A stretch of 64,000 bases of DNA from Candidatus Omnitrophota bacterium (GTDB taxonomy: Bacteria; Omnitrophota; Gorgyraeia; Aquiviventales; Aquiviventaceae). Below the pieces are notes generated by a model. The model was given only the letters and a program-made list of their open reading frames with translations, was not told where the DNA came from and ran no database searches. Positions 1,270 through 27,349 of this stretch are shown here, one piece after another. Position numbers and translations under genes: made by a program. The DNA lies in the NCBI GenBank assembly GCA_016198905.1, contig JACQHR010000032.1, forward strand, positions 74,390 through 138,389, read 5' to 3'. Each line of letters starts with the position of its first letter. The first letter of the stretch is position 1.

Positions 1270-1272
1270 ATT

Positions 1273-1781
1273 CGTTTCACGTTTCAGGTTTCACGTTTCA
1301 CGTGACGGACGATGACAACCGTACAGCGATTTGAACAATTGGAAGCTTGGCAGAGAGCACGGGAACTTGCCCAAGAGGTTTATGCGATCACAGGGAAGGG
1401 TTCCTTTGCAAAGGATTTTATCCTCAGAGACCAAATTCGGCGAGCTGCGGTTTCGGTTGTCGCGAATATCGCAGAGGGATTTGAGCGCAGCGGCCGAGGT
1501 GAGTTCATCCAATTTCTTGCCGTGGCCAAGGGTTCAGTCGGAGAGTTGAGGTCGCATGTATACATTGCTCACGATCAGGGGTATCTCAGCAAGGCCGAGT
1601 TTGAGCGGTTAAGCGATCTCGCCATCCGGACCGCACAGTTGGTAGGCGGGCTGATGAATTATCTGAGAGGGTCTAGCATTAAAGGCACCAAGTTCAAGAA
1701 GGTTGTCGGACTGAGTGTTGTTTCCACGCGAGGCGACTTTGCCCAACGTGAAACCTGAAACGTGAAACGCGAAACGAAACG
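1273..1781 (+). repeat. E1: heptamer-armed palindromic cassette carrying a four-helix-bundle gene
   Basis: Left arm 1274-1304 is GTTTCAC GTTTCAG GTTTCAC GTTTCAC GTG. Right arm 1747-1781 is CGTGAAAC CTGAAAC GTGAAAC GCGAAAC GAAACG. 1273-1295 is a perfect 23-nt reverse complement of 1747-1769. The cassette starts 4 nt after the upstream TAG and ends at the ATG of the next GT2. Confidence 0.9.
1312..1758 (+). CDS. Four-helix-bundle protein (23S rRNA intervening-sequence protein / S23p family, TIGR02436-like)
   Basis: FEQLEAWQRARELAQEVY...RDQIRRAAVSVVANIAEGFERSG..EFIQFLAVAKGSVGELRSH matches the family hallmark (W-Q-A...ANIAEG...A.GS..E). The stop TGA lies inside the right arm of E1. Confidence 0.85.
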   Translation: MTTVQRFEQLEAWQRARELAQEVYAITGKGSFAKDFILRDQIRRAAVSVVANIAEGFERSGRGEFIQFLAVAKGSVGELRSHVYIAHDQGYLSKAEFERLSDLAIRTAQLVGGLMNYLRGSSIKGTKFKKVVGLSVVSTRGDFAQRET

Positions 1782-2732: not shown

Positions 2733-2740
2733 AGAAGTGA

Positions 2741-4145: not shown

Positions 4146-4156
4146 GTCTCACCTCC

Positions 4157-8933: not shown

Positions 8934-11464
8934 GGATTGTGATTGTGGCACCAGAGGTGTTTCCGGTTCCACCGATCCGAGGCGGGGCGGTGGAGACCGT
9001 CATCGAGGAAATCTCCGCGCAGTTCCGTGACCACAAGGTAACCATTCTCGGCATTGCCGACGCGTCACTGCCGGTGCAAGAGACGAAGGAGCATCGGACA
9101 TATCGCCGTTGGAAGCGCACGGTCATTGATCGACTCTTGCTCTCGACGTGGAAGCTGCCGTTCAAACAGAGCAACTCGCCGTGGTACTACTGGCCCTACC
9201 AGCATTGGATCGCCAGGCAGGTGCAACGGCTGCGTCCCGACGTCGTGTGGGTGCACAGCCGCATCCAATTTGCGCCGGCGATTCGCCGCGCCGCCCCTCA
9301 CGCGCGGATGATCGTCAGCGTCCATCAACTGAGCACGCTGCGCGATGAGCGCGTCTGGCAGCAAGCGCGCGTCGCGTGTTGTGATGTGATCGCCGGTGTC
9401 AGCCAATTCATGATCGAGGCCATCGCTGCGCGGTATCCATGGACGCAACCCAAGACGCACGTGCTCTCAAACGGCGTTGACGTGACAGCCTATCAGCCGT
9501 GGTGGGCGCAGTCGGCCAGGCGCGAGCGGATGCGCCGCGAGCAGGGCTGGGGTGACGCGCCGGTGATCTTGTATGCCGGGCGGCTCGTCGAGCAAAAGGG
9601 CGTGCATGTGCTCGCCGATGCTTTCAAACAACTGGTAAGGGGTGAGGGGCGGGAGACAGGGGGCGCGGGATCCAACACGAAACCAATGCTGGTCATTGCC
9701 GGCGGCCACACGTACTCCGATGGGACAGAAACCGACTATATCAGGCAGTTGAAGCGCACGCTTGAGCCGCTGGGATCGCAGGTCGTCTGGCTGGGGTATC
9801 AACCGTCGAGCGCGCTGGTGAGCCTGTACGCGGCCAGCGACGTCGTCGTCGTCCCATCAATCAATCCGGAAGCGTTTTCCATGGTCACGGTTGAAGCGAT
9901 GGCCTCGGGTCTGCCGGTCGTTGCCTTCGCGCACGGCGGCCCAGCGGAGATCATTCGCCACGGCATCGATGGGTTCTTGGTGCCGGTCTCCCGCGGCGCG
10001 GAGGGTCTGGCCGAGGCGCTGCAAGCGTGCGTCAGCAACACCACCCTGCGGGAAGCCATCGGCCGCGAGGCCAGACGGACGGTAGAGGAGCGCTTTACGT
10101 GGCAGCGTGTGGCAGAGAGCTTCCTCAAATTGACTCAGGGACAAGGGACAGGGGACAGGGGGCGAGGGAATGCCCTTCCTACGCCCCGCGCCCCGCGCCC
10201 CGCGCCCCAGACACGCGCCGTCCCTATTCTTATTGCTGAGTCAGGATCAGGCTACGGAGGCAGCGCGAAATACCTCAGCGAGCTGGTGTCGCTGCTGGAT
10301 CGGCGACGCTTCCACGCGCAGGTGGTGGCGGCTGAAGAGGGGCCGTTCATTCGCAAGGTCAAAGAGCAGGGAGTGCCAGTAGCACTGAGGCCAAGTTGGA
10401 GATTCGCTTGGGGGCAGGGGGCGGGAGACGAGGGGCGGGGGAAGGGCCAGCACACAGCACTCAGCACGAACGTGAAACATGAAACGCGAAACGTGAAACG
10501 AACGTCGCATGTCCGGTTCGCGCTGGTTGCTGCTACACAGCTTTTGATCATGGTTCCAGCAATTGCCCTCTGGTTGAAGTGGCGGAGGATCCGGCTGGTG
10601 CATCTGAATAACGAGATCCTCTCGCACGTGCCGCTGGCGCTCGGAGCGAAACTCGCCGGCTGCCGCGTGGTGTGCCACCTGCACGGCTGGCGTCCGTTCA
10701 CGAGGCTGGAGCGCGCTGTGGCCGGTGTCGTTGATGAGTTCGTCTGCATTTCGGAGGCTGGCGCGCGGTACTTCGAATCGCAACTGCCGCATCGCCGGGT
10801 GGCCGCGATTCCCAACGGTATTCTGCTCAATGGTCAGTTGGACGGCCTTGACGTGAAACGAGCGCAGGTCCGTCGGCAGTTGGGGATCCAGCCCCATGAC
10901 GCGGTCATCGCCATCATCGGGCGCTTGGTGCCGTGGAAAGGCCAGGCAGTGTTCTTGAAGGCGTTGGCGGATGTCAGCCAGCGACACCCGGACGTGGTCG
11001 GCCTCATCGTGGGGCACGATGCCTCGCCAGGGCAGAGCTATCTGACACAGTTACAGTCGACTGCGCGTGAGCACGGCCTCGCTGAGCGTGGGCGCGTGCA
11101 CTTTGTCCCGTGGCTCGAGGACGTGTGGGGCATTTATGCCGCGGCGGACATCATCGTGCACGCTTCGACGCAGCCGGAGCCGTTCGGACTCGTGCTCATT
11201 GAAGCGATGGCGGCGGGCAAGCTCGTGATTGCCACGCGATCCGGTGGAGTCGTCGATATCGTCACGGATGGCCGGACAGGACTGCTGGTTGAGCCGGGCG
11301 ATCCGGATGGGCTGGCGCGCGCCATCACGCAGGTGGTGACTGATCCTTCGCGCGCCGCTGCGCTGGCTGAGGCCGGCCGGCAGCGCGCGCGAGACGTGTT
11401 CACCATGGAGCGCAACGCGCAGGCAGTCGCGCAGGTCTATCAGCGGCTGATGGTGTGCCGATGA
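8930..11464 (+). CDS. Double GT4 glycosyltransferase (two complete GT-B modules joined through element E3)
   Basis: Module 1: MRIVIVAPEVFPVPPIRGGAVE...VVPSINPEAFSMVTVEAMASGLPVVAF. Module 2: ILIAESGSGYGGSAKY...ASTQPEPFGLVLIEAMAAGKLVIATRSGG. ATGA overlap at 8930. Contains E2, E3 and E4 in frame. Confidence 0.85.
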   Translation: MRIVIVAPEVFPVPPIRGGAVETVIEEISAQFRDHKVTILGIADASLPVQETKEHRTYRRWKRTVIDRLLLSTWKLPFKQSNSPWYYWPYQHWIARQVQRLRPDVVWVHSRIQFAPAIRRAAPHARMIVSVHQLSTLRDERVWQQARVACCDVIAGVSQFMIEAIAARYPWTQPKTHVLSNGVDVTAYQPWWAQSARRERMRREQGWGDAPVILYAGRLVEQKGVHVLADAFKQLVRGEGRETGGAGSNTKPMLVIAGGHTYSDGTETDYIRQLKRTLEPLGSQVVWLGYQPSSALVSLYAASDVVVVPSINPEAFSMVTVEAMASGLPVVAFAHGGPAEIIRHGIDGFLVPVSRGAEGLAEALQACVSNTTLREAIGREARRTVEERFTWQRVAESFLKLTQGQGTGDRGRGNALPTPRAPRPAPQTRAVPILIAESGSGYGGSAKYLSELVSLLDRRRFHAQVVAAEEGPFIRKVKEQGVPVALRPSWRFAWGQGAGDEGRGKGQHTALSTNVKHETRNVKRTSHVRFALVAATQLLIMVPAIALWLKWRRIRLVHLNNEILSHVPLALGAKLAGCRVVCHLHGWRPFTRLERAVAGVVDEFVCISEAGARYFESQLPHRRVAAIPNGILLNGQLDGLDVKRAQVRRQLGIQPHDAVIAIIGRLVPWKGQAVFLKALADVSQRHPDVVGLIVGHDASPGQSYLTQLQSTAREHGLAERGRVHFVPWLEDVWGIYAAADIIVHASTQPEPFGLVLIEAMAAGKLVIATRSGGVVDIVTDGRTGLLVEPGDPDGLARAITQVVTDPSRAAALAEAGRQRARDVFTMERNAQAVAQVYQRLMVCR
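9637..9669 (+). repeat. E2: solo G-rich arm inside GT4 module 1
   Basis: AAGGGGTGAGGGGCGGGAGACAGGGGGCGCGGGA matches the left-arm consensus and is translated in frame as RGEGRETGGAG. No C-rich partner follows. Confidence 0.8.
10136..10208 (+). repeat. E3: G-arm/C-arm palindromic element fusing two GT4 cistrons
   Basis: Left CAGGGACAAGGGACAGGGGACAGGGGGCGAGGG, loop AATGCCCTTCCTA, right CGCCCCG x3 + CGCCCC. Translated as GQGTGDRGRGNALPTPRAPRPAP with no stop. Confidence 0.85.
10410..10504 (+). repeat. E4: chimeric three-block heptamer element inside GT4 module 2
   Basis: G-arm GGGGGCAGGGGGCGGGAGACGAGGGGCGGGGGAAGGG, then CAGCACA CAGCACT CAGCACG, then AACGTGA AACATGA AACGCGA AACGTGA AACGAAC (the E1-type GTGAAAC arm). 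In frame as GQGAGDEGRGKGQHTALSTNVKHETRNVKRT. Confidence 0.85.
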
Positions 11465-12957
11465 GCGTCGTCAACCAAACCGCAGCCCGCGCAGGCGCAC
11501 GCGCCATACCCCCGCTGCACACCGTGGTCGACCGCCGCATCTGGACGTTTGTCGCGCTCATCGGATTCCTCGGCTGGCTCGTCATGAAGGAAATCACGCT
11601 GCCCTCCGGTCTCATGGCGGCTTGTGCGGGGCTGGGATTGCTCGGGCTGTTCATGGTCAGCGTCCAGCGGCCGGAGCTGTCGCTGTACGTGCTCGTGGCA
11701 TACCTGCCGTTCAGCCGGCTCCTCGTCGGAGATTTCGGCACCGAAGCGTACGCCTTCAACCTCACGAACATCCTGACGCTGTGGGTCCTTAGCGCCTATG
11801 TGCTGCGTTGCATGTCGCAAGGCCGGCAGCCCTTCCAATCCGCCCCGATGAGTCGCCTCGTCCTGGCGTTCTGCGCGCTGAGCGGATTCTCGCTGCTGCA
11901 GGGAGGCTTTGCGTACGGCTCCTGGTACTTCTGGCATTACCTCACTCCGCTGAAGCAGTGGCTGACGCCGATCTTCTTTTACTTTCTGGCGCTCTGGGTG
12001 GTGCGGGATCGGAAAGTTCTCAAGACGGTCGTGGTGCTCATGATGGTCGCCGTCACGGTGGTAGCGCTCATGGCGATCCGGGACTATCTGAACAACTCGG
12101 GCAGCAGCCTCGAGAAATCCCGGGTCGGCGGGATCGCCGAGCAGCCCAACACGCTGGGGGCGTTCTTCGTGTACTACATGTTCTTGTTCGCCGGCTTCTT
12201 CCTGACCTATCGCAAGAAGTTCAAGGTGTGGGGGCTGCTCGTTCCCTTTCTGCTGTGTTTCCGCGGCATCATGGTGACATTTTCCCGCGGGGCCTATTTC
12301 GGATTCGCCGCCGGCGGCCTCGGAGCGTGTTGGCACCGCAATAAGGCGCTGTTTGTGGTCGCCGCCGCGCTGTTATGGTTTGCCGTCATGAATCCCTGGA
12401 TGCTGCCGAAGGGGATTCGGTATCGGATGGGGCAAACCGTCGTCAGCCACGGCAGCGACAACGCACCGGGCGACGCGCCGATCGAGGATACCTTGGAAGC
12501 CAGCGCCGGAAACCGCGTGCGCATTTGGCGGGCGACCATCGAGATGATCAAGGACCATCCGTGGTGGGGGGTGGGCTACGGGGCGTTTCCCGCCTACATC
12601 GGGGTGTACACCGGCGGGCACTTCGAGGCGGTCGATGCCCATAACACGTATTTGCTCCTTGCCGCCGAGTTGGGGATCCCAATACTGGTCGTGTTCTGCG
12701 TGGTGATCCTCGTGGCGTGGTATCACACCAGGCGACTCTACCTGGGGACCCACGACTTCGCTATGAAGGCCATCACCCTAGGTTTCCTCGCCGGGCTGGA
12801 AGGGCTCATTGTGGTGAACATGTTCGGCTCGCGGATGGATGACCAGGCGGTCAGCAGCTACTTTTGGATCTTGTGCGGCCTCATCATGCGCGGCGTGTTG
12901 ATCGAGCGGGAAGAGATGTTGGGGGCATGGGGCGCGAGACGTGGGGCGAGGGCATAG
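11461..12957 (+). CDS. O-antigen ligase / Wzy-like polytopic membrane protein (paralog 1)
   Basis: About 10 or more hydrophobic segments. Central GIMVTFSRGAYFGFA and periplasmic-loop ...HNTYLLLAAELGI (Wzy_C-like). ATGA overlap with the upstream gene. The C-terminal tail LGAWGARRGARA is encoded by the E5 left arm. Confidence 0.8.
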   Translation: MSVVNQTAARAGARAIPPLHTVVDRRIWTFVALIGFLGWLVMKEITLPSGLMAACAGLGLLGLFMVSVQRPELSLYVLVAYLPFSRLLVGDFGTEAYAFNLTNILTLWVLSAYVLRCMSQGRQPFQSAPMSRLVLAFCALSGFSLLQGGFAYGSWYFWHYLTPLKQWLTPIFFYFLALWVVRDRKVLKTVVVLMMVAVTVVALMAIRDYLNNSGSSLEKSRVGGIAEQPNTLGAFFVYYMFLFAGFFLTYRKKFKVWGLLVPFLLCFRGIMVTFSRGAYFGFAAGGLGACWHRNKALFVVAAALLWFAVMNPWMLPKGIRYRMGQTVVSHGSDNAPGDAPIEDTLEASAGNRVRIWRATIEMIKDHPWWGVGYGAFPAYIGVYTGGHFEAVDAHNTYLLLAAELGIPILVVFCVVILVAWYHTRRLYLGTHDFAMKAITLGFLAGLEGLIVVNMFGSRMDDQAVSSYFWILCGLIMRGVLIEREEMLGAWGARRGARA

Positions 12958-12997
12958 TCATATGCCAACCATACCCCCACCCCCCGCCCCCCGCCCC
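12919..12997 (+). repeat. E5: palindromic element with upstream stop and downstream start codon in its loop
   Basis: Left TTGGGGGCATGGGGCGCGAGACGTGGGGCGAGGG, loop CATAGTCATATGCCAACCATA (TAG 12955-57, ATG 12962), right CCCCCACCCCCCGCCCCCCGCCCC. Confidence 0.85.
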
Positions 12998-14344
12998 ATA
13001 CTTGGTTGTATCTTGAGTCAATTCCCGCGATACGATGAGGCGTTCATTCTGCGCGAGCTTGTCGCGTTGTCGCAGGACTCGCCGCGGCTCGTGATCTTCT
13101 CGCTGCGTCCGTGCCGCGATCGCGTGATCCACGAGCAGGCGAAAGCCCTGCAGCCGCAGACAGTCTACGCGCCCTTCGTGTGGTCATGGCAGGTCTGGCG
13201 CAGCCACGCGCATGTCCTTCAGCACAATCTGAGAGGATATCTTCGCGCGCTTGGATGGATCATCAGCCGGCATTGGCGGCATCCGGTGATTCTGGTGAAG
13301 ACGCTGGCATTTTTCCCAAAGACCGTGCACTTCGCGAGGCTGGCCCAACAGCGGGGCGTCACGCATGTGCATGCGTTTTGGGCGACGTACCCGGCGGCGG
13401 CGGCGATGATCATGCGTGAGCTGACCGGCATCCCATTTAGCATGTCCGGCCACGCGCATGATATTCACACGATCAATCCGACGCTGACCGAGAAGATGCA
13501 GCATGCGCGCTTTGTCGTGACCTGCACGCAGGCGAATCGTGACTATTTGTTATCGTTAGTCAATAGTCATGGGGCAAGGGGCGGGAGACAGGGGGCAGGG
13601 ACAACCAAAACTATTGTGGAAGGTTTTTCCACGCCCCCCGTCCCCCGCCCCCCGTCCCATGTTATGGTGAGCTACCACGGCGTCGATCTTTCCCGCTTCG
13701 CCGCGCGGCCGAAGGATCACGGGCCGGTGTGCCGGATCCTCGCGGTGGGCAGCCTGTTGCCGTGCAAAGGGTATGAGACGCTGATTGAGGGCTGCACGCG
13801 GCTGCGTGAGCGCGGCGCGGCGTTTCACGTGACCATCGCCGGCGGCGGGCCGCTCGAACGCGCGCTGCGCCAGCGGATCGCGAAGCATGCGCTTACGCAG
13901 CAGGTGACGATGACGGGCTTTGTCAGCCAGGAAACGGTCGCAGCGCTCTATCAGCAAGCGCACCTCGTGATCCTGCCCTTGGTGTCCAAGATCCATTGGG
14001 GCATCCCGAACGTCCTGATCGAAGCGCTGGCTACGAAGACGCCGGTCATCTGCTGCGATCTGCCGTCGATGCGCGAGCTGGTGGTGCACGGCGAAAGCGG
14101 CTGGATCATCCCTGAGAACGACCCCAACGCGTTAGCGACTTCAATCGTGACGCTCTGGAAAGACGCCGCGTTGCGGCAGCGGATCGCCGACGCAGGGTAT
14201 CAGCGCGTGGTCGAGCGGTTTTCGCTGGAGGAAACTGGACGAAAGCTACGAGAGATCTTTAGTCAGGGGCAGGGGGCGGGAGACAGGGGGCAGGTGCAGA
14301 CCGATTTTCCCGCGCCCCGCGCCCCGCGCCCCAAAGTTCCTTAA
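12962..14344 (+). CDS. Glycosyltransferase family 4
   Basis: GT-B C-domain: ...ILPLVSKIHWGIPNVLIEALATKTPVICCDLPSMRELV. Start ATG lies in the E5 loop (alternative GTG 12941). Contains E6 in frame, and E7 forms its C-terminal tail. Confidence 0.8.
   Translation: MPTIPPPPAPRPILGCILSQFPRYDEAFILRELVALSQDSPRLVIFSLRPCRDRVIHEQAKALQPQTVYAPFVWSWQVWRSHAHVLQHNLRGYLRALGWIISRHWRHPVILVKTLAFFPKTVHFARLAQQRGVTHVHAFWATYPAAAAMIMRELTGIPFSMSGHAHDIHTINPTLTEKMQHARFVVTCTQANRDYLLSLVNSHGARGGRQGAGTTKTIVEGFSTPPVPRPPSHVMVSYHGVDLSRFAARPKDHGPVCRILAVGSLLPCKGYETLIEGCTRLRERGAAFHVTIAGGGPLERALRQRIAKHALTQQVTMTGFVSQETVAALYQQAHLVILPLVSKIHWGIPNVLIEALATKTPVICCDLPSMRELVVHGESGWIIPENDPNALATSIVTLWKDAALRQRIADAGYQRVVERFSLEETGRKLREIFSQGQGAGDRGQVQTDFPAPRAPRPKVP
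13568..13661 (+). repeat. E6: palindromic element in frame inside GT4
   Basis: Left CATGGGGCAAGGGGCGGGAGACAGGGGGCAGGG, 30-nt loop, right ACGCCCCCCGTCCCCCGCCCCCCGTCCCATG. Translated as HGARGGRQGAGTTKTIVEGFSTPPVPRPPSH. Confidence 0.85.
14264..14332 (+). repeat. E7: palindromic element forming the C-terminal tail of GT4
   Basis: Left CAGGGGCAGGGGGCGGGAGACAGGGGGCAGG, loop TGCAGACCGATTTTCC, right CGCGCCCCGCGCCCCGCGCCCC. Translated as GQGAGDRGQVQTDFPAPRAPRP, followed by the TAATG junction at 14342-14346. Confidence 0.85.
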
Positions 14345-15204
14345 TGGCCATTCTGCGCACAGTCCTCAGCGATATCACCTATCATGCGAGGCGATTGACA
14401 CCTGGCGATGGAGAAGGATTGCGCATCCTGATGTACCATCGCGTCACCGATGCGCATCCCGGGAATCGGCTGTGCGTGCCGGTGGCGCGGTTTGCGGATC
14501 AGATGCGGTGGCTGGCGGAGCAGGGGTACCGCACAATCTCATTCGCTGAGGCGGTGGAGTTAGTGAGGGGGCAGGGGGCAGGGGGCGGGAGACGGGGGAA
14601 TAGCCGACAAGCAGAATCTGCGGCATTCCCTCGCCCCGCGCCCCGCGCCCCGCGCCCCAAACTGATTGTCCTGACATTTGATGACGGCTTCGAGGATAAT
14701 TTTCTCTACGCCTATCGCGCGCTGGCGCAGTACGGCTTCACCGGCTGCTTCTTCGTGCCAAGTGCCTTTATCGCGTCCGGACAAACCGGGCATGAGGCGG
14801 TCGATCAACCGATGAGCTGGGCGCAATTGAGTGAGCTCGCACGGGAAGGCCACGAAGTAGGAGCGCATTCGATCAGCCACGCGAAGCTCACACACATTGA
14901 TCCGGTGCAGATGCGCGAGGAAGTGCGAGGATCGAAAGAAGCGATCGAGCAAGGACTGCAGCAGCCCGTGAGATTCTTCTGTTACCCGTCGGGTGACTAT
15001 AATGCGGCCGTGAAACAGGCGGTGCGCGACAGCGGCTACGACGGGGCGTGCACCGTGGAGCCGGGCGCGAACCGTTCCGGGGCTGATCCCTTTGCGTTGA
15101 CACGCACGGAGATCAGCGCGTTTGATTCGCTGTGGGATTTTGAGAAGAAGATCGCGGGCGCGTTTGATTGGATGCATCGCGTCGTCCAATGGACGAAACG
15201 ATGA
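14344..15204 (+). CDS. Polysaccharide deacetylase (CE4/NodB-type), paralog 1, with in-frame E8 insertion
   Basis: LTFDDGFEDN, GAHSISH and YPSGDYN motifs. TAATG 1-nt overlap with the upstream gene. Confidence 0.85.
   Translation: MAILRTVLSDITYHARRLTPGDGEGLRILMYHRVTDAHPGNRLCVPVARFADQMRWLAEQGYRTISFAEAVELVRGQGAGGGRRGNSRQAESAAFPRPAPRAPRPKLIVLTFDDGFEDNFLYAYRALAQYGFTGCFFVPSAFIASGQTGHEAVDQPMSWAQLSELAREGHEVGAHSISHAKLTHIDPVQMREEVRGSKEAIEQGLQQPVRFFCYPSGDYNAAVKQAVRDSGYDGACTVEPGANRSGADPFALTRTEISAFDSLWDFEKKIAGAFDWMHRVVQWTKR
14565..14658 (+). repeat. E8: palindromic element in frame inside the deacetylase
   Basis: Left GAGGGGGCAGGGGGCAGGGGGCGGGAGACGGGGG, loop AATAGCCGACAAGCAGAATCTGCGGCATT, right CCCTCGCCCCGCGCCCCGCGCCCCGCGCCCC. 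Translated as GQGAGGGRRGNSRQAESAAFPRPAPRAPRP. Confidence 0.9.
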
Positions 15205-16466
15205 TCAGACATCAGACCTCAGACATCAGACCACAGTCGGACTCAAGACCCAAGACCCAAGACCCAACAGGTGCATTTTCAGCCCCGAGTCTTGAGTCCC
15301 GAGTCTTGAGTCCCGAGTCTCGGGTCCCAGTGAAGGTCATATTCATCATTTGGTCGCTTGGATTAGGCGGCGCAGAACAGGTTGTGATCCGGTTAGCAGC
15401 CGGGCTTGATCGTCGCCGATTCGCGCCGATCATTTGCTGCATGAACGAGCCCGGGCCGTTTGCCACGCAAGCGATCAGCCGCGGCATCGAGGTGATTGCG
15501 CTGCATAAGCGCGGCGCGATCGATCTGGGCATGCTGATCAGGCTCACGCGCGTGATGCGGCAGCGTCGGCCCGGCATCGTGCACACGCATCTGTGGGGCG
15601 CCAGCTTCTGGGGGCGTCTCGCGGCGCGTCTGGCGCGCGTCCCGGTAGTCATCGTCCATGAGCACGGCATGCAGCCCTATCGCGGGGCCTTCCATTTTTT
15701 CTGCGATCGATGGTTAGCGCGGGTCACGTCGCGCATCCTGTTTGCCTCGCAGCACGTCCTGCAGATCTACCGGGCAAAGACGGCCGTCGCGGAATCCAAG
15801 TGCATGGTGATTCCGAATGGTGTCGCGGTGTTACGGCTGCCGGATCGAATCGCGGCTAGGCGCGCGCGCGGATGGTCGCCGGACGATCAAGTGATCCTCA
15901 GCGTCGGGCGGCTCTCGCCGGAAAAAGGCTATGAGGATTTGCTGAAGGCCTTCGCGCTCATCGCTTCCCGCGCGCCGCACGCGCGGCTGGTGCTCGTGGG
16001 AGATGGCGCGCAACGCGCGGCGCTTCAGACGCTGCAGGCGCAGTCAGGGCTCAATGGCCGCGTGACGTTTGCGGGCCGGCAAGAGGATGTCACGGGATGG
16101 CTGGCCGCGGCGGATCTCTACGTGCAGCCCTCGCATCGAGAAGGGCTGCCGCTGGCGGTGCTGGAGGCGATGGCCGCCGGCGTGCCGGTGGTGGCCACCG
16201 ACGTCGGCGATCTGCGCTACGTCATCACCGAGGGACGCACCGGCTACCTCGTGCCGGCCCGGCAGCCGGACACGCTGGCTGCGCGATTGGTCGACGTCCT
16301 GGAACATCCCGAGCAACAGCCGCGCATCGCCGAGGCCGCGCGAGCGCTCGTGCGCACGCGCTTCTCCGACGAACAGATGATCCGCGCCATTGAGCGCGTG
16401 TATGAGGACGAGCTGTCGTGTTGGGGCAAGGGGCAGGAGACGGGGGGCGGGGGAGGGAACCGCTGA
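15201..16466 (+). CDS. Glycosyltransferase family 4
   Basis: VKVIFIIWSLGLGGAEQVVIRLAAGL... and QPSHREGLPLAVLEAMAAGVPVVATDVGD. ATGA overlap at 15201. The first ~43 codons are E9 heptamer repeats, so the true start could be later (e.g. GTG 15331). Confidence 0.8.
   Translation: MIRHQTSDIRPQSDSRPKTQDPTGAFSAPSLESRVLSPESRVPVKVIFIIWSLGLGGAEQVVIRLAAGLDRRRFAPIICCMNEPGPFATQAISRGIEVIALHKRGAIDLGMLIRLTRVMRQRRPGIVHTHLWGASFWGRLAARLARVPVVIVHEHGMQPYRGAFHFFCDRWLARVTSRILFASQHVLQIYRAKTAVAESKCMVIPNGVAVLRLPDRIAARRARGWSPDDQVILSVGRLSPEKGYEDLLKAFALIASRAPHARLVLVGDGAQRAALQTLQAQSGLNGRVTFAGRQEDVTGWLAAADLYVQPSHREGLPLAVLEAMAAGVPVVATDVGDLRYVITEGRTGYLVPARQPDTLAARLVDVLEHPEQQPRIAEAARALVRTRFSDEQMIRAIERVYEDELSCWGKGQETGGGGGNR
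15205..15328 (+). repeat. E9: variant heptamer element (different unit sequences)
   Basis: TCAGACA TCAGACC TCAGACA TCAGACC; then ACTCAAG ACCCAAG ACCCAAG ACCC; loop GGTGCATTTTCAG; then GAGTCTT GAGTCCC GAGTCTT GAGTCCC GAGTCTC GGGTCCC. GGACTCAAGAC is complementary to GTCTTGAGTCC. Confidence 0.8.
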
Positions 16467-16495
16467 ATGCGGAACGCGGAGTGCGGAATCGAGGA
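16422..16495 (+). repeat. E10: G-rich arm followed by a TGCGGAA heptamer block (no C-arm)
   Basis: TGGGGCAAGGGGCAGGAGACGGGGGGCGGGGGAGGG ... TGCGGAA CGCGGAG TGCGGAA TCGAGGA. The GT4 stop TGA 16464-66 lies between the two blocks. Confidence 0.8.
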
Positions 16496-16540
16496 AGCAA
16501 TTGAGACCTAACGCGAAGCGAACGTCACGTTGGGGCGGCG

Positions 16541-18025
16541 ATGAGGAGTGACGCGGTCTTGCCGGCAGCGATGGTGAGGCGCCTGCTGCCCGAGGTGGAT
16601 GAGCGGGCGTGGATGTTCGTGCTCGCGATCGGCGCCTTCGCCGTGTTGGGGCTCAAAGAGATGCCGTTATCGGCACCCCTGGTCTTGGGTCTCTTCGCTG
16701 CCGGTGTGGTCGGGTTGATTGCGGCCGGCTGGCTGGGACCCGAAGCACCGCTGTACGCGCTCATCGCGTACTTGCCCTTCAGCGGGCTGCTGGCCGGTGG
16801 CGCGTCCATCCCGTTTCTCAACCTGACGAATTTGCTTATCCTACTCATCGTGGTCAGCCACATTTGGCGGCAGCGTCGGAATGAGCTGCAGGTCTTGACG
16901 TCTGCGCCGATGAATGCGGTCATCGCGCTTTTCGCCGCGCTGGCGGTTCTGTCGTGGATGCGCGCCGGATGGATGTATGGCGGCTGGTACGCGTCGACGC
17001 ATGCCGTGGCTCTCTTGCGTTGGCTGCGCCCGATGGCGTTCTACTTCGTGGCGCTGTGGGCCGTGCGGGATGCGCGCGCACTAAAGACCGTGCTTGCGCT
17101 CATCGCGGTGGCGGTGACGGTCGTCGCGCTGATGGCGCTGTGGGAGTATCTCGATCGCGCCGGCAGCACCATCGAGCGCTCGCGCGTGCAGGGAATCGCC
17201 GGCGAAGCCAACCGCATGGGGGCGTTCTTCGTGACGTACATGTTCCTGTTCCTTGGCTATTTCTTCGTGACACCGCTGCGTCGCTACGGGTGGCTGATGC
17301 TCGTGCCGTTTCTCTTGTGCGTGCGCGGCATCATGGTGACCTTCTCGCGCGGGGCGCATGTGGCGTTCGCTGCGGGGGTGCTCGTCGCTTGTTGGATGCG
17401 CAGCAAGTGGCTCTTCGTGGTTGCGGCCGCCGCCGCGGCATTCATCATCACGCATCCGGCCCTGCTGCCGGGAGGATTTCGCACCCGCATCGAGCAGACC
17501 ATTCGTCCTGGTCAGCGACTCGACCTGGACGCCGGCACCTCGCAGGAGCTCTCGCGGCAATTGGAGCCCAGCGTCGGGCGACGGGTTGAAGCATGGAACG
17601 GCGGCTTGGCGATGGTGCGCGCGCATCCCTGGGTTGGCGTCGGGTTCGGAGGATTCCGGCGGTTCATTCCCCACTACACGCAGGGCCGAGTGAGCTCCAT
17701 GGCGGCGCACAACACGTACCTGTGGCTGGCGTCGGAGATGGGCATCCCCACGCTGCTGGTGTTTCTGCTGTTTCTCGACCTGCTGGCGTACCACACGGTG
17801 TGGCTGTATCGGCACAGCCAGGATGTCTGGCTGCGGGCTCTTGGCCTTGGCGTGTTGGCCGGCGCCGCGGCGCTGTCTGTGGCCAACGGTTTCAGCGAGT
17901 GCCTCGATTCCTCCGAGGAGGTCGTGGGTTATTTCTGGATCCTCTGCGCGCTCGTCATGAGAGGCGTCCTGCTTGAAAAACAACAGGCTGGGGCAAGGGG
18001 CGTGAGACAGGGGGCGGGGGAATAG
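16541..18025 (+). CDS. O-antigen ligase / Wzy-like polytopic membrane protein (paralog 2)
   Basis: Collinear with 11461..12957 (e.g. GIMVTFSRGAHVAFAAG, AHNTYLWLASEMGIP). The tail GARGVRQGAGE is encoded by the E11 left arm. Confidence 0.8.
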   Translation: MRSDAVLPAAMVRRLLPEVDERAWMFVLAIGAFAVLGLKEMPLSAPLVLGLFAAGVVGLIAAGWLGPEAPLYALIAYLPFSGLLAGGASIPFLNLTNLLILLIVVSHIWRQRRNELQVLTSAPMNAVIALFAALAVLSWMRAGWMYGGWYASTHAVALLRWLRPMAFYFVALWAVRDARALKTVLALIAVAVTVVALMALWEYLDRAGSTIERSRVQGIAGEANRMGAFFVTYMFLFLGYFFVTPLRRYGWLMLVPFLLCVRGIMVTFSRGAHVAFAAGVLVACWMRSKWLFVVAAAAAAFIITHPALLPGGFRTRIEQTIRPGQRLDLDAGTSQELSRQLEPSVGRRVEAWNGGLAMVRAHPWVGVGFGGFRRFIPHYTQGRVSSMAAHNTYLWLASEMGIPTLLVFLLFLDLLAYHTVWLYRHSQDVWLRALGLGVLAGAAALSVANGFSECLDSSEEVVGYFWILCALVMRGVLLEKQQAGARGVRQGAGE

Positions 18026-18437
18026 CAATGCCTATGACGTCTGCAGCGATCACAACCTTCAAAGACCTTCGCGTCTGGCAGGAAGGCATCCAGTTGGTCA
18101 AGGAGATCTATGCCCTCTGCGTCAAATTGCCGAAGGAAGAACTCTACGGCTTAGCGAGTCAGATGAAGCGCGCGGCGGTGTCGGTTCCATCCAACGTAGC
18201 AGAAGGCCATGCTCGAAAACACCGCGCCGAGTACAGACAGTACGTGTATATTGCGATCGGCTCGCTTGCGGAACTCGAGACGCACGTGCTCATTGCTAAG
18301 GAGTTGAACTTGTCTAATGGTGATGAGCTGACCCCGGTCCTTACACGCATTGACCGTTTGCGAGGGATGTTGCTGACGCTCGGGAGACGACTCGGATGAC
18401 GCCGTCCCCTCGCCCCTCGCCCCTCGCCCCTCGCCCC
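17989..18437 (+). repeat. E11: G-arm/C-arm palindromic cassette carrying a second four-helix-bundle gene
   Basis: Left TGGGGCAAGGGGCGTGAGACAGGGGGCGGGGG (17989-18020). Right (CCCCTCG)x4 + CCCCA (18406-18437). About 25 of 32 positions are complementary by hand alignment. Confidence 0.9.
18028..18399 (+). CDS. Four-helix-bundle protein (23S rRNA intervening-sequence protein family), second, divergent copy
   Basis: FKDLRVWQEGIQLVKEIY...QMKRAAVSVPSNVAEGHARKH..EYRQYVYIAIGSLAELETH. Starts 2 nt after the ligase TAG and has an ATGA overlap with the next GT4. Confidence 0.85.
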   Translation: MPMTSAAITTFKDLRVWQEGIQLVKEIYALCVKLPKEELYGLASQMKRAAVSVPSNVAEGHARKHRAEYRQYVYIAIGSLAELETHVLIAKELNLSNGDELTPVLTRIDRLRGMLLTLGRRLG

Positions 18438-20717
18438 ATTCGCGTGATGTTCGTGATCTGGTCGCTCGGCCTCGGCGGAGCGGAGCAGGCGGTGATCCGG
18501 CTGGCCGCGGGCCTTCGGCGCGAAGGGTTCGAGCCGTTGATCTGCTGTCTCAACGAGCCGGGTCCCTTCGCTGTGCAAGCGCAGGCCGCCGGCGTGCCCG
18601 TCGTGGCGCTGCACAAACGGTGGCGCTATGACGCGCGCGTGCTCTGGCGCTTGATGCGGTTGATGCGGCAGTGGCATCCGGACGTCGTGCACACGCATCT
18701 GTGGGGCGGCAACGCGTGGGGGCGGACGGCGGCCTGGCTGGTGGGTGTTCCGGTCATCGTCACGAGCGAGCGGAATCTGGATCCTTGGAAACGCTGGTAC
18801 TATTTTGTGATCGACCGCGTGCTCGCAGCGCGGACCACGACGTTGCTGGCCGTCTCCGAGTCCGTGCGGGCGTTCTACGAGCAGCACGGGGTCGGCCGCG
18901 GCCGCTGGCAAGTCTGCTACAACGGCGTCGATATCGCCGACGTAACACCCCGGCAGCGAGGAGCCGTGTTCGCGCAACTGGGCGCGCAGCATGGCGAGCC
19001 GGTCGTCGGCTTCATCGGACGCTTGGCTTCGGCAAAGGCTCCGGATGTGTTCGTCGAGGCGGTCGCACAGGCGCGCCGAACACTCCCTTCGCTGAAAGCG
19101 CTCATCGTCGGCGACGGGCCGCTGCGCAGCGAGGTTGAAGCCTTGGCGCGTCGATTGGGATTGGATGGGCATCTCGTGGTGACCGGCGTGCGCGAGGATA
19201 TCCCGGAGCTGCTGGCGGGGATGGACGCGCTGATGGTGTCGTCCGAGCGCGAGGGGCTCTCCATGGCGATGTTGGAGGCCATGGCGGCAGGAGTCCCGGT
19301 TATCGCGACTCGAGTAGGAGGCACTCCTGAACTCATCGAGCCGGGGATGACCGGACTGCTTGCGCCTCCAGGCGCGCCCGACGCATTGGCGCGCCAGTTG
19401 GTGGCACTCCTGACCAATCCCGCGCACGCGCAGGCCATTCGCGATGCGGCCCGCGCGCGAGTGGCGAAGGATTTTTCCATGCAGCGCGTGGTGGCGACGC
19501 ATGCAGCAGTGTACCGCCGCGGCCTCAAGCAGGCCAACCGTGCAGGACTCAGTGATCGCGTCAAAGAGGCGGCGGCATCGCTTCCCATCGCTCACCGCGC
19601 TCGCCTCCGCGTCATGCATGTCATCGACGATCTCGGACTCGGAGGCGCGCAGCGGCAGCTCGTGGAGCTCGTCAAGGCGTTCCCGCGGGATCGCTATGAG
19701 CTGCACGTTGTGAGTCTCTCGACGACGAAGACGGACTACGCGGAGGCGCTCCACGCAGCGGAGATTCGCCTGACGCAAATCCCGCAGGCCGGCAAATGGG
19801 ATGGCCGTTGTTTTTCGACGCTCTCCACGCTGATCAAAACCGAGAAGCCTTCCATCGTCCACACGTGGCTCTTTACCGCCGACCTCTATGGCCGCATGGC
19901 GGCGTGGGTGGCGCATGTGCCGGTCATCATCAGCGCGGTGCGCAGTGTGGAGCCGGATAAGCCCGCGCACTACGTCGTGGTGGATCGCGTCCTGCGCAAC
20001 ATCACCAGTGCCTTCACCGTCAATGCGCGCGCGATTGGCGAGGTGCTGACGGCGCGCGAGCATGTGCCGACGGAGAAGATTCATACGATCTATAACGGGC
20101 TCGATCTGCGCGCCCTGGATCCATCCCGCGTGAATGGAGCGATTCGGCGCGCCATCGCCGTCGGCGCCGACGTCCCCCTGATCGGGATCGTCGGGCGTCT
20201 AGCGCCGGTGAAGGATCACGCCACGTTTCTGCGCGCGGCAGTGCGCGTGCATCGTGAAGCGCCACAGGCGCGGTTTCTCATCGTCGGCAACGGTTTGCTT
20301 CACGGCGAGCTCGAGCAGTTGAGCCAATCATTGGGCCTGAGCGATGTCGTTCGCTTTCTCGAGAGCCAATCCAACGTAGCCGAGGTGTTCGCCGCGCTCG
20401 ATGTCGTCGTCGTGTCCTCCCTCTATGAAGGCTGCTGCAACGTGATCCTCGAAGCGATGGCGATGGGCAAGCCCGTGATCGCCACAGCCGTCGGGGGCAA
20501 TCCTGAGCTCATCAGCGACGGGCAAACCGGGCTGCTCGTGCCCGTGGGCGATGATGCGAAGCTGGCCGAGGCGATGGTGAGCCTGCTGCGTGATCCGCAG
20601 CGCGCGCAGGCGATGGGCCGCTCGGGGCGAGCGCGCGTGGAGTGCGACTTCGCCATCGAGCGGATGGTCGTCGCAACCGATCGCGTCTATCAGAAACTGT
20701 TGAGTCGCGCCCCATGA
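18396..20717 (+). CDS. Double GT4 glycosyltransferase (natural tandem fusion, no element at the joint)
   Basis: Module 1: IRVMFVIWSLGLGGAEQAVIRLAAGL...SSEREGLSMAMLEAMAAGVPVIATRVGG. Module 2: LRVMHVIDDLGLGGAQRQL...SSLYEGCCNVILEAMAMGKPVIATAVGG. The N-terminal MTPSPRPSPLAPRP is the E11 right arm (alternative ATG 18447). Confidence 0.85.
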   Translation: MTPSPRPSPLAPRPIRVMFVIWSLGLGGAEQAVIRLAAGLRREGFEPLICCLNEPGPFAVQAQAAGVPVVALHKRWRYDARVLWRLMRLMRQWHPDVVHTHLWGGNAWGRTAAWLVGVPVIVTSERNLDPWKRWYYFVIDRVLAARTTTLLAVSESVRAFYEQHGVGRGRWQVCYNGVDIADVTPRQRGAVFAQLGAQHGEPVVGFIGRLASAKAPDVFVEAVAQARRTLPSLKALIVGDGPLRSEVEALARRLGLDGHLVVTGVREDIPELLAGMDALMVSSEREGLSMAMLEAMAAGVPVIATRVGGTPELIEPGMTGLLAPPGAPDALARQLVALLTNPAHAQAIRDAARARVAKDFSMQRVVATHAAVYRRGLKQANRAGLSDRVKEAAASLPIAHRARLRVMHVIDDLGLGGAQRQLVELVKAFPRDRYELHVVSLSTTKTDYAEALHAAEIRLTQIPQAGKWDGRCFSTLSTLIKTEKPSIVHTWLFTADLYGRMAAWVAHVPVIISAVRSVEPDKPAHYVVVDRVLRNITSAFTVNARAIGEVLTAREHVPTEKIHTIYNGLDLRALDPSRVNGAIRRAIAVGADVPLIGIVGRLAPVKDHATFLRAAVRVHREAPQARFLIVGNGLLHGELEQLSQSLGLSDVVRFLESQSNVAEVFAALDVVVVSSLYEGCCNVILEAMAMGKPVIATAVGGNPELISDGQTGLLVPVGDDAKLAEAMVSLLRDPQRAQAMGRSGRARVECDFAIERMVVATDRVYQKLLSRAP

Positions 20718-26383: not shown

Positions 26384-26456
26384 GACGCGGGGCAGGAAAA
26401 ACCAAATTTGGTATTGAGGATTTTCCCACGCCCCGTGCCCCCGTCTCCCGCCCCTT
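26366..26456 (+). repeat. E12: palindromic element at the giant-protein / deacetylase junction
   Basis: Left AAGGGGCAAGGGGCATGAGACGCGGGGCAGG. The loop has a GGAAAA...TTTTCC clamp and an internal CCAAATTTGG palindrome. Right CACGCCCCGTGCCCCCGTCTCCCGCCCCTT. Confidence 0.85.
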
Positions 26457-27341: not shown

Positions 27342-27349
27342 AATCTGTG

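What the first reader, a model, noticed from the sequence alone, without database searches (positions are those of the whole stretch)
13568..13661. Element E6 inserted in frame within a GT4, shortly upstream of the HGVD motif
- The protein reads RDYLLSLVNS-[HGARGGRQGAGTTKTIVEGFSTPPVPRPPSH]-VMVSYHGVDLSRF.
- The insert is a complete G-arm / 30-nt loop / C-arm element bounded by CATGGGG...CCCATG.
- The insertion point is the loop just before the conserved xGVD motif that opens the C-terminal Rossmann domain, a position likely to tolerate extra residues.
Basis: seen in the sequence. Interest (0 to 1): 0.65.

Follow-up and report, generated by a model that had tools for sequence, protein, structure and literature searches.

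The report
Hairpin repeat translated inside a glycosyltransferase
A 94-base DNA hairpin from a widespread repeat family sits in frame in a surface loop of an otherwise intact sugar-transferase gene of an uncultured Omnitrophota bacterium, as Rickettsia palindromic elements do, and its longer relatives have the same layout as the intervening sequences of 23S rRNA.

Summary
Window 13568-13661 is a 37-nt G-rich arm, a 20-nt loop and a 37-nt C-rich arm (RNA fold -64 kcal/mol, z -6.3). It adds 31 in-frame codons to a GT4 glycosyltransferase.

- **Host gene.** About a third of 30 orthologues lack any insert. AlphaFold places the insert in a disordered loop between the last helix and last strand of the N-terminal Rossmann domain, five residues before YHGVD. 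The gene is not dead.
- **Family.** E6 is one of about 13 related elements in window 1.2-27.4 kb and none lie in 28-64 kb. Five or six are in frame inside genes and the rest sit at gene junctions. The arms are arrays of 7-nt units (GGGGCNN/GAGACNN).
- **Long forms.** Two copies carry a PF05635 (S23p/Avd-like) gene between such arms, which is the layout of ORF-bearing 23S rRNA intervening sequences.
- **Spread.** The G-arm pattern hits at least 120 metagenome contigs. There the hairpins lie in frame inside RluD-like, ValS and TsaD domains.
- **Turnover.** The same sites carry unrelated arm types in relatives that are 88-90% identical.
- **Not a classical MITE.** No target-site duplication, transposase or Rfam family was found.

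Best reading: a tolerated, translated, selfish hairpin element. This is a new variant of a known kind (RPE-like and IVS-like).

The parts
13568..13661 (+). Element E6. G-rich arm 13568-13604, loop 13605-13624, C-rich arm 13625-13661. It is translated in frame as residues 210-240 of the GT4.
12941..14344 (+). Host gene, a GT4 (GT-B fold) glycosyltransferase. It is 100% identical to NCBI protein P0001 from a Candidatus Omnitrophica MAG. The real start is probably ATG 12962, inside the loop of the upstream element. The database start, TTG 13013, would cut off the first beta-strand.
12918..13000 (+). Family member at the Wzy/GT4 junction. The G-arm encodes the Wzy C-terminal tail. The loop holds the Wzy stop (TAG 12955-12957) and the likely GT4 start (ATG 12962). 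The C-arm encodes the GT4 N-terminal tail PPPPAPRP.
14262..14336 (+). Family member that forms the C-terminal tail of the GT4 (..GQGAGDRGQVQTDFPAPRAPRPKVP). The tail is disordered in the model (residues 446-467).
14562..14660 (+). Family member in frame inside the polysaccharide deacetylase gene 14344-15204, just before LTFDDG. It is absent from the orthologues in L004 and P0019. MFE -67.9 kcal/mol, z -6.8.
10138..10212 (+). Family member in frame in the linker between the two GT4 modules of the double-GT4 gene (about 8930-11464). It is absent from the L001 and L004 orthologues.
9638..9672 (+). Solo G-arm with no partner arm and no hairpin. It is in frame in the first module of the double-GT4. 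L004 carries a different insert at the same site.
10410..10502 (+). Hybrid of a canonical G-arm and a (GTGAAAC)n arm of the second arm type. It does not fold into a hairpin. It is in frame in the second module of the double-GT4.
15239..15313 (+). Hairpin of a third arm type, (AGACCCA)n / (TGAGTCY)n, in the N-terminal region of the GT gene 15168-16466. z -4.5.
16420..16500 (+). Canonical G-arm at the 3' end of GT 15168-16466, followed by a non-complementary (GGAATGC-like)n array. It does not fold into a hairpin.
17989..18441 (+). Long form of the element. G-arm 17989-18025, a 123-aa ORF at 18028-18399 (PF05635 / TIGR02436 four-helix-bundle, S23p/Avd-like), and a (CGCCCCT)n C-arm at 18402-18441. 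It lies between a Wzy-like gene and a double-GT4.
1271..1778 (+). Second long form. (GTTTCAC)n arm 1271-1303, a PF05635 ORF at 1312-1758, and a (GTGAAAC)n arm at 1745-1778. The arms are 33 nt and 91% complementary.
26366..26456 (+). Closest relative of E6, 73% identical over 90 nt including the loop. It supplies the stop codon (TGA 26381-26383) of the 1913-aa ORF 20642-26383.
   Evidence: (family D14)
27265..27344 (-). Family member in the opposite orientation, with the GAGAY-bearing arm on the minus strand. It lies at the junction of ORFs 26477-27265 and 27287-28483.

Best explanation
E6 is a cargo-less copy of a hairpin repeat element whose two arms are inverted arrays of about four 7-nt units (GGGGCNN/GAGACNN on one side, NNGCCCC on the other).

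SHOWN:
- The same genome segment holds about 13 such elements. Two long forms carry a small PF05635 (S23p/Avd-like four-helix-bundle) gene between the arms.
- E6 lies in a surface loop of an intact GT4. It keeps the reading frame and carries no stop codon.
- Orthologues exist with no insert, and others carry unrelated hairpins at the same point.

INFERRED:
- The element entered or replaced this loop as selfish DNA. It survives because a Gly/Arg-rich plus Pro/Arg-rich stretch of 31 residues is an innocuous disordered loop, and it is translated as part of the enzyme.
- Selection removes copies that shift the frame or hit structured parts. What remains sits in permissive loops, protein termini and gene junctions.
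- In the mRNA the roughly 35-bp stem would form whenever ribosomes are absent. It is the kind of duplex that RNase III cuts in 23S rRNA intervening sequences and in Correia elements. Any effect on message stability or translation rate would be a side effect rather than the reason the copy exists.
- The mode of spread is not a cut-and-paste transposase leaving target-site duplications. Copying or exchange between hairpins by recombination or template switching, possibly helped by the cargo proteins, is the most likely route. This is not demonstrated.
For: Family and non-randomness:
- 14 pattern matches in the window against 0.01 expected.
- Copies are listed. All lie between 1.2 and 27.4 kb.

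Intact host:
- Glycos_transf_1 Pfam hit, E 1.4e-31.
- More than 100 family-invariant residues are retained.
- Confident GT-B model with the insert at pLDDT below 50, between helix 197-209 and strand 240-243. Foldseek matches to BshA, MshA and PimA.

In-frame copies in neighbouring genes: three in the double-GT4 and one in the deacetylase.

Orthologues:
- 0 to about 75 extra residues at the same site, patchily distributed on the tree.
- The inserts in L004, L037, L038 and L039 are all hairpins built of 7-8-nt units with different unit sequences.

Long forms:
- PF05635 / TIGR02436 ORFs are flanked by inverted unit arrays here and in L004, L028, L050, L071, L073, L113, L144 and L154. A GxxExxY (PD-(D/E)XK) ORF is flanked the same way in L039.
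- The Coxiella 23S rRNA intervening sequence has the same anatomy. It has a 28-bp terminal stem, tandem heptamers of variable number, an S23p ORF, and is excised by RNase III (PMC4990558).

Breadth:
- At least 120 metagenome stretches carry the exact G-arm pattern.
- Hairpins lie inside single Pfam domain matches of PseudoU_synth_2, tRNA-synt_1, Anticodon_1 and TsaD. ValS and TsaD are generally essential in bacteria (own knowledge), so the inserts must be read through.

Precedents: RPEs fused in frame to Rickettsia genes, and RNase III cleavage of Correia elements (PMC10969869).
Against: - No mobility machinery was identified. There is no transposase, no target-site duplication and no recent identical copies. 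The closest pair in the window is 73% identical.
- There is no direct evidence that the insert-bearing protein is made or active.
- The site is used very often: roughly 20 of 30 GT4 orthologues, and different arm families occur in TsaD proteins 88-90% identical. That is more than a simple 'random insertion plus permissive-loop filter' predicts. It hints at targeting or at a function.
- In two ValS orthologues the element replaces native sequence of similar length rather than being a clean addition.
- In this window the copies cluster in one polysaccharide operon and are absent from 36 kb of ordinary genes. This is unexplained.
Confidence: 0.65

Rival explanations
1. The hairpin is kept for an RNA-level function in the operon. 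It could be an RNase III processing or stability site, or a translational pause placed at domain and gene boundaries. Such a site would set the relative output of the genes or help the N-terminal domain fold before the C-terminal domain emerges.
For: - Elements sit at gene junctions and domain boundaries.
- The same sites are occupied by hairpins of unrelated sequence in many orthologues, even very close ones. That is the pattern expected if the structure matters and the sequence does not.
- Ten of eleven G/C-type copies have the GAGAC-bearing arm 5' on the coding strand.
- RNase III cuts comparable stems in intervening sequences and Correia elements.
Against: - About a third of GT4 orthologues and several TsaD orthologues have no insert at all.
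- Decayed half-elements and non-folding hybrids persist in frame at 9638, 10410 and 16420.
- Cleavage inside a coding sequence would destroy the message.
- There is no terminator-like tail and no expression data.
Confidence: 0.15
2. The palindromes are not mobile. They grow in place at fragile, Gly-codon-rich loop sequences by slippage of 7-nt units and hairpin-templated repair. Similar arms in different places would then be convergent products of one mutational process.
For: - The arms are tandem unit arrays of variable number.
- There is no target-site duplication.
- 'Empty' sites carry small remnants, GGGACAGGGGACAAGG in L003 and GGACGTCC in L001.
- In ValS the element replaces rather than adds sequence.
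- Heptamer number varies between Coxiella strains.
Against: - The ordered unit series GGGGC-GGGGC-GAGAC-GGGGC, plus the sub-terminal GGGAA(A)ACC / GGTTTTCCC, recurs in at least 120 contigs with GC content from 0.40 to 0.76.
- Closely related PF05635 genes travel with the same arms in different contexts.
- TsaD proteins 88% identical carry entirely different arm families at one site. That fits replacement better than drift.
Confidence: 0.12
3. The element is removed before the protein is finished, either by excision and religation of the mRNA or by intein-like protein splicing. The mature GT4 would then lack it.
For: Only the analogy with the excision of intervening sequences from 23S rRNA.
Against: - All intragenic copies examined keep the frame and lack in-frame stops. 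This covers five in the window, four GT4 orthologue loci, and the RluD-like, ValS and TsaD cases. Removal at the RNA level would not require that.
- Fragments left by rRNA intervening-sequence excision are not religated.
- 31 residues of low-complexity sequence cannot form an intein (own knowledge).
- No intron family is matched in Rfam.
Confidence: 0.03
4. The GT4 is a pseudogene inactivated by the insertion, or the insert is an assembly artefact.
For: The sequence comes from a metagenome-assembled genome. A -62 kcal/mol hairpin could in principle be an assembly problem.
Against: - The frame, more than 100 invariant residues and both Rossmann domains are intact.
- The same protein is in NCBI from a 145-kb contig.
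- Analogous inserts occur in dozens of independent assemblies and in genes that are generally essential.
Confidence: 0.03

Closest known systems
Rickettsia palindromic elements (RPEs; Ogata et al. 2000, as reviewed in PMC10969869)
   Same: Both are short palindromic repeats, present in many copies and frequently inserted in frame into unrelated protein-coding genes. They are translated as extra surface peptides compatible with the protein fold. No transposase has been linked to either.
   Different: - Phylum and base composition are unrelated. E6 is G+C-rich, and RPEs are AT-rich by my own knowledge.
- The arms here are arrays of 7-nt units, giving low-complexity Gly/Arg and Pro/Arg peptides rather than a conserved RPE peptide.
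- Long forms carrying PF05635 or GxxExxY genes exist here.
- The same sites are reused by different arm families.
- Sequence homology to RPE families was not tested.
23S rRNA intervening sequences: the S23p-ORF type of Coxiella and Leptospira, and the short ORF-less type of Salmonella
   Same: Terminal inverted repeats form a stem of about 28-37 bp. In Coxiella the arm contains tandem heptamers of variable number. The long forms enclose a PF05635/S23p ORF. The same few host sites are occupied by unrelated sequences in different bacteria. ORF-less forms of about 100 nt exist (own knowledge for Salmonella; for Coxiella).
   Different: The elements here lie in protein-coding operons and inside coding sequences, not in rRNA helices. 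The intragenic copies must be translated rather than excised. RNase III processing has not been tested here.
G-rich heptameric repeats of Xanthomonas (GGGAATC) and Nostoc (GGGGA(C/T)T, STRR-like), Rehm et al. 2015 (PMC4692102)
   Same: Both are tandem 7-nt units with a G-tract, preferentially about four units (which permits a G-quadruplex). In Xanthomonas they are often convergent pairs forming inverted repeats. They lie mostly between co-oriented ORFs and are transcribed.
   Different: Those repeats are reported as under-represented in coding regions, and no in-frame use was described. No link to PF05635 cargo was described. The unit sequences differ.
Bacterial MITEs such as Correia, ERIC and BOX
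   Same: They are small, have terminal inverted repeats, occur in many copies, fold as RNA, and are sometimes intragenic. Correia stems are cut by RNase III.
   Different: No target-site duplication was found. No parent insertion sequence with a transposase was found. The arms are unit arrays rather than unique terminal inverted repeats.
Coding palindromes in Nematomorpha mitochondrial genes (PMC6649704)
   Same: Long inverted repeats are embedded in protein-coding sequence and both arms are translated.
   Different: Those occur in an organelle and are perfect repeats up to 284 bp. They are not a dispersed family built of heptamer arrays. Only the abstract was seen.

Membership tests
Rickettsia palindromic elements (RPE) | A palindromic repeat of about 100-150 bp present in many copies in one genome | tested here: met
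   94-nt hairpin. About 13 related elements lie in 27 kb.
Rickettsia palindromic elements (RPE) | Inserted in frame in protein-coding genes and compatible with the protein fold | tested here: met
   The GT4 loop has pLDDT below 50. There are further in-frame copies in the double-GT4 and the deacetylase, and in RluD-like, ValS and TsaD proteins elsewhere.
Rickettsia palindromic elements (RPE) | Sequence homology to one of the RPE families and a conserved encoded peptide | not tested
   No RPE consensus sequence was available in the tools. The host phylum (Omnitrophota), the G+C-rich unit-array arms and the variable peptides all argue against homology.
Classical MITE | Terminal inverted repeats and small size | tested here: met
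   37-nt arms, 78% complementary.
Classical MITE | Target-site duplication flanking the element | tested here: not met
   For 51 hairpins with both flanks, the mean direct-repeat length was 1.39 against a null of 1.49 +/- 0.18. None reached 5 nt.
Classical MITE | A parent insertion sequence with the same ends that encodes a transposase | tested here: not met
   The only long forms found with the same arms carry PF05635 or GxxExxY ORFs, not a transposase. The whole genome was not available.
23S rRNA intervening sequence (IVS) | Terminal inverted repeats forming a long stem that closes the element | tested here: met
   Compare the 28-bp stem in Coxiella.
23S rRNA intervening sequence (IVS) | An S23p/PF05635 ORF in the loop (long type) | tested here: met
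   Met for the family: 17989-18441 (E 1.5e-34) and 1271-1778 (E 1.9e-33). E6 itself is the ORF-less form.
23S rRNA intervening sequence (IVS) | Located in helix 9, 25 or 45 of the 23S rRNA gene | tested here: not met
   E6 lies in a GT4 coding sequence. The other copies lie in or between protein genes. No rRNA hit was found in 1-30 kb.
23S rRNA intervening sequence (IVS) | Excised from the transcript by RNase III | not testable with these tools
   This needs transcript end-mapping or an in vitro RNase III assay.
G-quadruplex-forming heptameric repeats (Rehm et al. 2015) | Tandem 7-nt units each holding a G-tract, typically about four units, often as convergent pairs | tested here: met
   The G-arm reads GGGGCAA GGGGCGG GAGACAG GGGGCAG GG, and the C-arm has a 7-nt period.
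G-quadruplex-forming heptameric repeats (Rehm et al. 2015) | Intergenic location, under-represented in coding sequence | tested here: not met
   E6 and at least four other copies in the window are intragenic and in frame.
G-quadruplex-forming heptameric repeats (Rehm et al. 2015) | Forms a G-quadruplex in vitro | not testable with these tools
   This needs CD spectroscopy. In the complete element the hairpin with the C-arm is the predicted fold.
Self-splicing intron or intein | A catalytic RNA core or a Hint-domain protein | tested here: not met
   Rfam returned only sub-threshold matches to microRNA precursors, meaning a generic hairpin. A 31-residue low-complexity peptide cannot be an intein.
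GT4 glycosyltransferase (host gene) | GT-B fold with two Rossmann domains and a Glycos_transf_1 C-terminal domain | tested here: met
   PF00534, E 1.4e-31. The model matches BshA, MshA and PimA, E down to 9e-21.

The most novel reading that the evidence does not exclude
The heptamer-array hairpins and their long forms carrying PF05635 (S23p/Avd-like) or GxxExxY (PD-(D/E)XK nuclease) genes are one unrecognised class of mobile element. This class is the source of 23S rRNA intervening sequences. It spreads without target duplications by copying into, or replacing, existing hairpins at fixed sites, and it has colonised the coding sequences of essential genes across Omnitrophota and other uncultured lineages. 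E6 would be a non-autonomous member. The large orphan PF05635 family would then have a role in the maintenance or spread of these elements.
Probability: 0.25. Interest if true: 0.85.

Novelty: new variant of a known kind. Interest (0 to 1): 0.6.

Why it matters
In-frame 'selfish DNA inside proteins' has rested mainly on the example of Rickettsia. Here an unrelated element family does the same thing, at high density and apparently in many uncultured bacteria, including inside ValS and TsaD, which are generally essential.

- **Annotation.** Gene callers mis-place starts and fuse or split genes around these hairpins. One example is the database start of this GT4.
- **Protein evolution.** Loops, termini and linkers are being rewritten quickly.
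- **Two old puzzles.** The shared anatomy gives a testable link to what 23S rRNA intervening sequences are and where they come from. It also bears on what the stand-alone S23p/Avd-like PF05635 proteins do.
- **Caveat.** For the GT4 itself the element is most likely harmless ballast.

Tried and rejected
- **Rfam, window 1-30 kb, E up to 1.** Only sub-threshold matches to microRNA precursors at E6 and at 12918-13000, meaning a generic long hairpin. No known RNA family.
- **Terminator and promoter scan, 9-28 kb.** Counts were at chance level. No T-run follows the G/C hairpins on the coding strand, so they are not intrinsic terminators.
- **Target-site duplications.** None found.
- **Complementary flanks.** I tested whether the flanks extend the palindrome, as if the elements inserted into hairpin tips. 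The signal was weak: 5 elements with 4 or more pairs against 1.0 expected, and a mean of 1.14 against 0.95. I do not rely on it.
- **Sliding RNAfold scan of the window.** In this G+C-rich DNA only E6, the 14562 copy and two unrelated sites passed z of -3.5 or lower, so the scan is too blunt for a census. The script then failed on file names. A first fuzzy-regex script timed out.
- **'Open frame through the element' classification of metagenome hairpins.** Long open frames occur on both strands by chance in G+C-rich DNA. I used it only to pick cases, which Pfam then confirmed.
- **Literature searches.** Searches for Omnitrophota repeats and for PF05635/TIGR02436 found no description of these elements. 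PF05635 appears only in the context of diversity-generating retroelements (DGRs) and rRNA intervening sequences.
- **DGR reading of the PF05635 genes.** Considered and set aside. Both copies are flanked directly by glycosyltransferase or Wzy genes with no adjacent reverse transcriptase. The whole window was not scanned for reverse transcriptases.
- **Integron attC and REP/RAYT.** Considered from memory and not pursued. The elements are intragenic, much longer than REPs, and lack the attC core or GTAG motifs.
Full report
**1. The observation**

Window 13568-13661 reads CATGGGGCAAGGGGCGGGAGACAGGGGGCAGGGACAA, then a 20-nt loop, then TTTTCCACGCCCCCCGTCCCCCGCCCCCCGTCCCATG. The repeat finder reports arms 13568-13604 and 13625-13661, each 37 nt, 78% complementary and 20 nt apart.

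As RNA, 13560-13670 folds into one long hairpin at -64 kcal/mol, against -41 +/- 3.6 for shuffles (z -6.3, no shuffle as good). As DNA it gives -30.4 kcal/mol, z -4.7.

H210 starts at 13568. The insert is 31 codons and has no stop in any forward frame.

**2. The host gene is a live GT4 and the insert is in a loop**

- Pfam finds Glycos_transf_1 at residues 266-422 (E 1.4e-31).
- The protein is 100% identical to an NCBI protein from a Candidatus Omnitrophica MAG. It has dozens of orthologues at 57-69% identity.
- In an alignment of 32 sequences the window protein keeps more than 100 invariant positions. The insert falls between ..LLxLxNG and xIxVSYHGVD.
- Ten orthologues have only 4-7 residues at this point.
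- AlphaFold with this alignment gives mean pLDDT 83.7 and pTM 0.80. The only low-confidence stretches are residues 211-235 (the insert) and 446-467 (a tail made by another element). The insert lies between helix 197-209 and strand 240-243, and YHGVD follows at 245-249.
- Foldseek matches the whole model to solved GT4 enzymes such as BshA, MshA, PimA and PglA (E down to 9e-21).

The insert is not in a core element, and orthologous inserts are not a conserved non-palindromic peptide.

**3. E6 is one of a family, and the family is densely intragenic here**

The G-arm pattern GGGGCNNGGGGCNNGAGACNNGGGGC, allowing up to 2 mismatches, occurs 14 times against 0.01 expected. All matches lie between 9.6 and 27.4 kb. 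Reading the copies gives these groups.

| Group | Positions |
|---|---|
| Complete G/C hairpins | 10138-10212, 12918-13000, 13568-13661, 14262-14336, 14562-14660, 26366-26456, 27265-27344 (opposite orientation) |
| Solo G-arm | 9638 |
| G-arm joined to a non-complementary array of another type | 10410-10502, 16420-16500 |
| Hairpin of a third unit type | 15239-15313 |
| Long forms | 17989-18441, 1271-1778 |

The arms have a 7-nt period: GGGGCAA GGGGCGG GAGACAG GGGGCAG, (CGCCCCG)n, (CGCCCCT)n, (GTTTCAC)n and (AGACCCA)n.

Compared with orthologues in L001 and L004, the double-GT4 gene carries three extra in-frame segments at 9638, 10138 and 10410. The polysaccharide deacetylase carries one at 14562-14660, just before LTFDDG.

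Other copies sit at gene junctions.
- The element at 12918-13000 has the Wzy stop (TAG 12955) and the probable GT4 start (ATG 12962) both in its loop. Its two arms encode the tail of one protein and the head of the next.
- The database start, TTG 13013, would remove the first beta-strand of the model.

No element lies in 28-64 kb. That region encodes ordinary genes such as sigma-54, a two-component system and ABC transporter parts.

**4. Long forms link the family to rRNA intervening sequences**

Between the arms of 17989-18441 and 1271-1778 lie intact ORFs of 123 and 148 aa. They match PF05635 (23S_rRNA_IVP; E 1.5e-34 and 1.9e-33) and TIGR02436, the four-helix-bundle protein.

In fetched loci every PF05635 ORF examined is likewise flanked by inverted arrays of 6-8-nt units. 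The unit sequence differs from cassette to cassette (L004, L028 three times, L050, L071, L073, L113, L144, L154). In L039 a GxxExxY/PDDEXK_3 ORF is flanked the same way.

ORFs closest to the window's 18028 ORF (E about 1e-50) carry the same G/C arms. The arms and the ORF therefore travel together.

The Coxiella 23S rRNA intervening sequence is described as a 28-bp terminal stem, tandem heptamers of variable number and an S23p ORF, excised by RNase III (PMC4990558). PF05635 is also the Avd-like family of diversity-generating retroelements (PMC10053308). No reverse transcriptase is adjacent here. E6 is best seen as the ORF-less form of such an element.

**5. The class is widespread and often lies inside genes that are generally essential**

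The contigs have GC content from 0.40 to 0.76. Most hits are hairpins whose two variable unit positions co-vary between the arms, for example GGGGCTA with TAGCCCC.

Pfam shows such hairpins lying inside single domain matches:
- PseudoU_synth_2 in L042, L043 and L119
- ValS tRNA-synt_1 and Anticodon_1 in L135 and L063
- TsaD in L093 and L122

ValS and TsaD are generally essential in bacteria (own knowledge), so the inserts must be translated. The named TsaD relatives are truncated '[Can...' labels, which are probably Candidatus Omnitrophica. I did not verify the taxonomy of the other contigs.

**6. Dynamics**

At the GT4 site, presence of an insert is patchy on a neighbour-joining tree. The inserts in L004, L037, L038 and L039 are hairpins with different units: GTTGGCGA/GCAAACCC, the same G/C type as ours, GGAGACA/CGTCTCA, and GTTGGCGC.

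'Empty' alleles keep small remnants, GGGACAGGGGACAAGG in L003 and the palindrome GGACGTCC in L001.

At the TsaD site:
- Proteins 88-90% identical carry a G/C-type hairpin (P0121), an AGGCTSA-type hairpin (P0122), or a centrally deleted version of the latter (P0123).
- Others carry further unit types or nothing.

Two ValS orthologues differ at two sites. At each, the element replaces native sequence of similar length rather than simply adding to it.

There is no target-site duplication and only weak extra complementarity of the flanks.

Turnover is therefore fast and the same sites are reused. A permissive-loop filter explains part of this. Targeting of existing hairpins, or exchange between hairpins, may explain the rest. 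I cannot decide between these.

**7. Mechanism**

Shown:
- the hairpin potential
- family membership
- an in-frame position in a disordered loop of an intact enzyme
- absence of the insert in some orthologues
- long forms with PF05635 cargo
- no target-site duplication

Inferred:
- The element is selfish or near-neutral DNA, translated as a flexible Gly/Arg...Pro/Arg loop.
- Selection leaves only copies in loops, termini and junctions.
- The stem in the mRNA is a plausible RNase III substrate, by analogy with intervening sequences and Correia elements. Obligatory cleavage is unlikely, because the frame is always preserved.
- Spread is by recombination or template switching rather than by classical transposition.

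**8. Comparison and verdict**

E6 behaves like a Rickettsia palindromic element. Its family is built like a 23S rRNA intervening sequence. Its arms resemble the G-rich heptamer repeats of Xanthomonas and Nostoc, which form convergent pairs but were reported as depleted in coding regions (PMC4692102).

It fails the MITE test on target duplications and on a transposase parent. It fails the intervening-sequence test on location. Homology to RPEs was not tested.

I found no description of these elements in Omnitrophota, or of heptamer-array cassettes around PF05635 outside rRNA. That search covered open-access literature only.

I rate it a new variant of a known kind. For this GT4 it is probably harmless. 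The wider phenomenon is of real interest.

Noticed in passing
window 12918-13000: One hairpin holds the stop codon of the Wzy-like gene (TAG 12955-12957) and the probable start of the GT4 (ATG 12962) in its loop. Its arms encode the Wzy C-terminal tail and the GT4 N-terminal tail. The NCBI start (TTG 13013) would delete the first beta-strand (residues 20-27) of the modelled fold.
   Followed up: partly
window 10410-10502 and 16420-16500: These are 'hybrid' elements. A canonical G-arm is followed by an array of a different, non-complementary unit type (GTGAAAC-type and GGAATGC-type). They do not fold (z +1.7 and +1.1), yet the first is in frame in the double-GT4. They may come from recombination or deletion between adjacent elements.
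   Followed up: partly
L039:12156-12627 and L004:12239-12674: At the same junction, after the deacetylase gene, one genome has a GxxExxY/PDDEXK_3 cassette and another has a PF05635 cassette. Each has its own unit-array arms. The window has the short AGACCCA-type hairpin (15239-15313) near the equivalent place.
   Followed up: partly
proteins P0121, P0122, P0123 (TsaD; alignment A4): TsaD proteins 88-90% identical carry different arm families at one loop. One of them has a 12-residue central deletion of the hairpin. This is the best material seen here for working out how the elements turn over.
   Followed up: partly
L071 and L073: The same PF05635 cassette with G/C arms lies after a gene ending ..VAIEEGAD.VRIGTA.F (YggS-like by eye) and before one containing IGLIGAG (ProC-like by eye). 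The two contigs are different, so the insertion is either shared by descent or site-specific. The gene identities were not checked with a tool.
   Followed up: no
window 1-27400 versus 27400-64000: All elements lie in the co-directional polysaccharide and glycosyltransferase cluster. None lie in the following 36 kb of mixed-strand ordinary genes. The reason is not known. Possibilities include tolerance, operon structure, or the history of the island.
   Followed up: partly
window 20642-26383: A 1913-aa ORF ends at a TGA inside the G-arm of the element at 26366-26456, so its C-terminus is element-derived. The protein itself was not analysed.
   Followed up: no
window 4261-4370: Two adjacent strong G+C-rich hairpins (-63.7 kcal/mol for the 110-nt window) lie at the end of ORF 3588-4373. 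They are not of the heptamer-array type and may be terminators.
   Followed up: no
window 2668-2733 and 3522-3587: A 66-nt direct repeat, 85% identical, lies at the 3' ends of two neighbouring ORFs (..WLPIKPYAALTVSALQ..). This suggests a partial gene duplication.
   Followed up: no
L053:3027-3136 (contig GC 0.40): A long one-sided tandem array of AAGGGGC/AAGAGAC/AAGGGAC/AAGGAAC units in a low-GC contig. The same unit vocabulary therefore exists outside G+C-rich genomes and outside hairpins.
   Followed up: no
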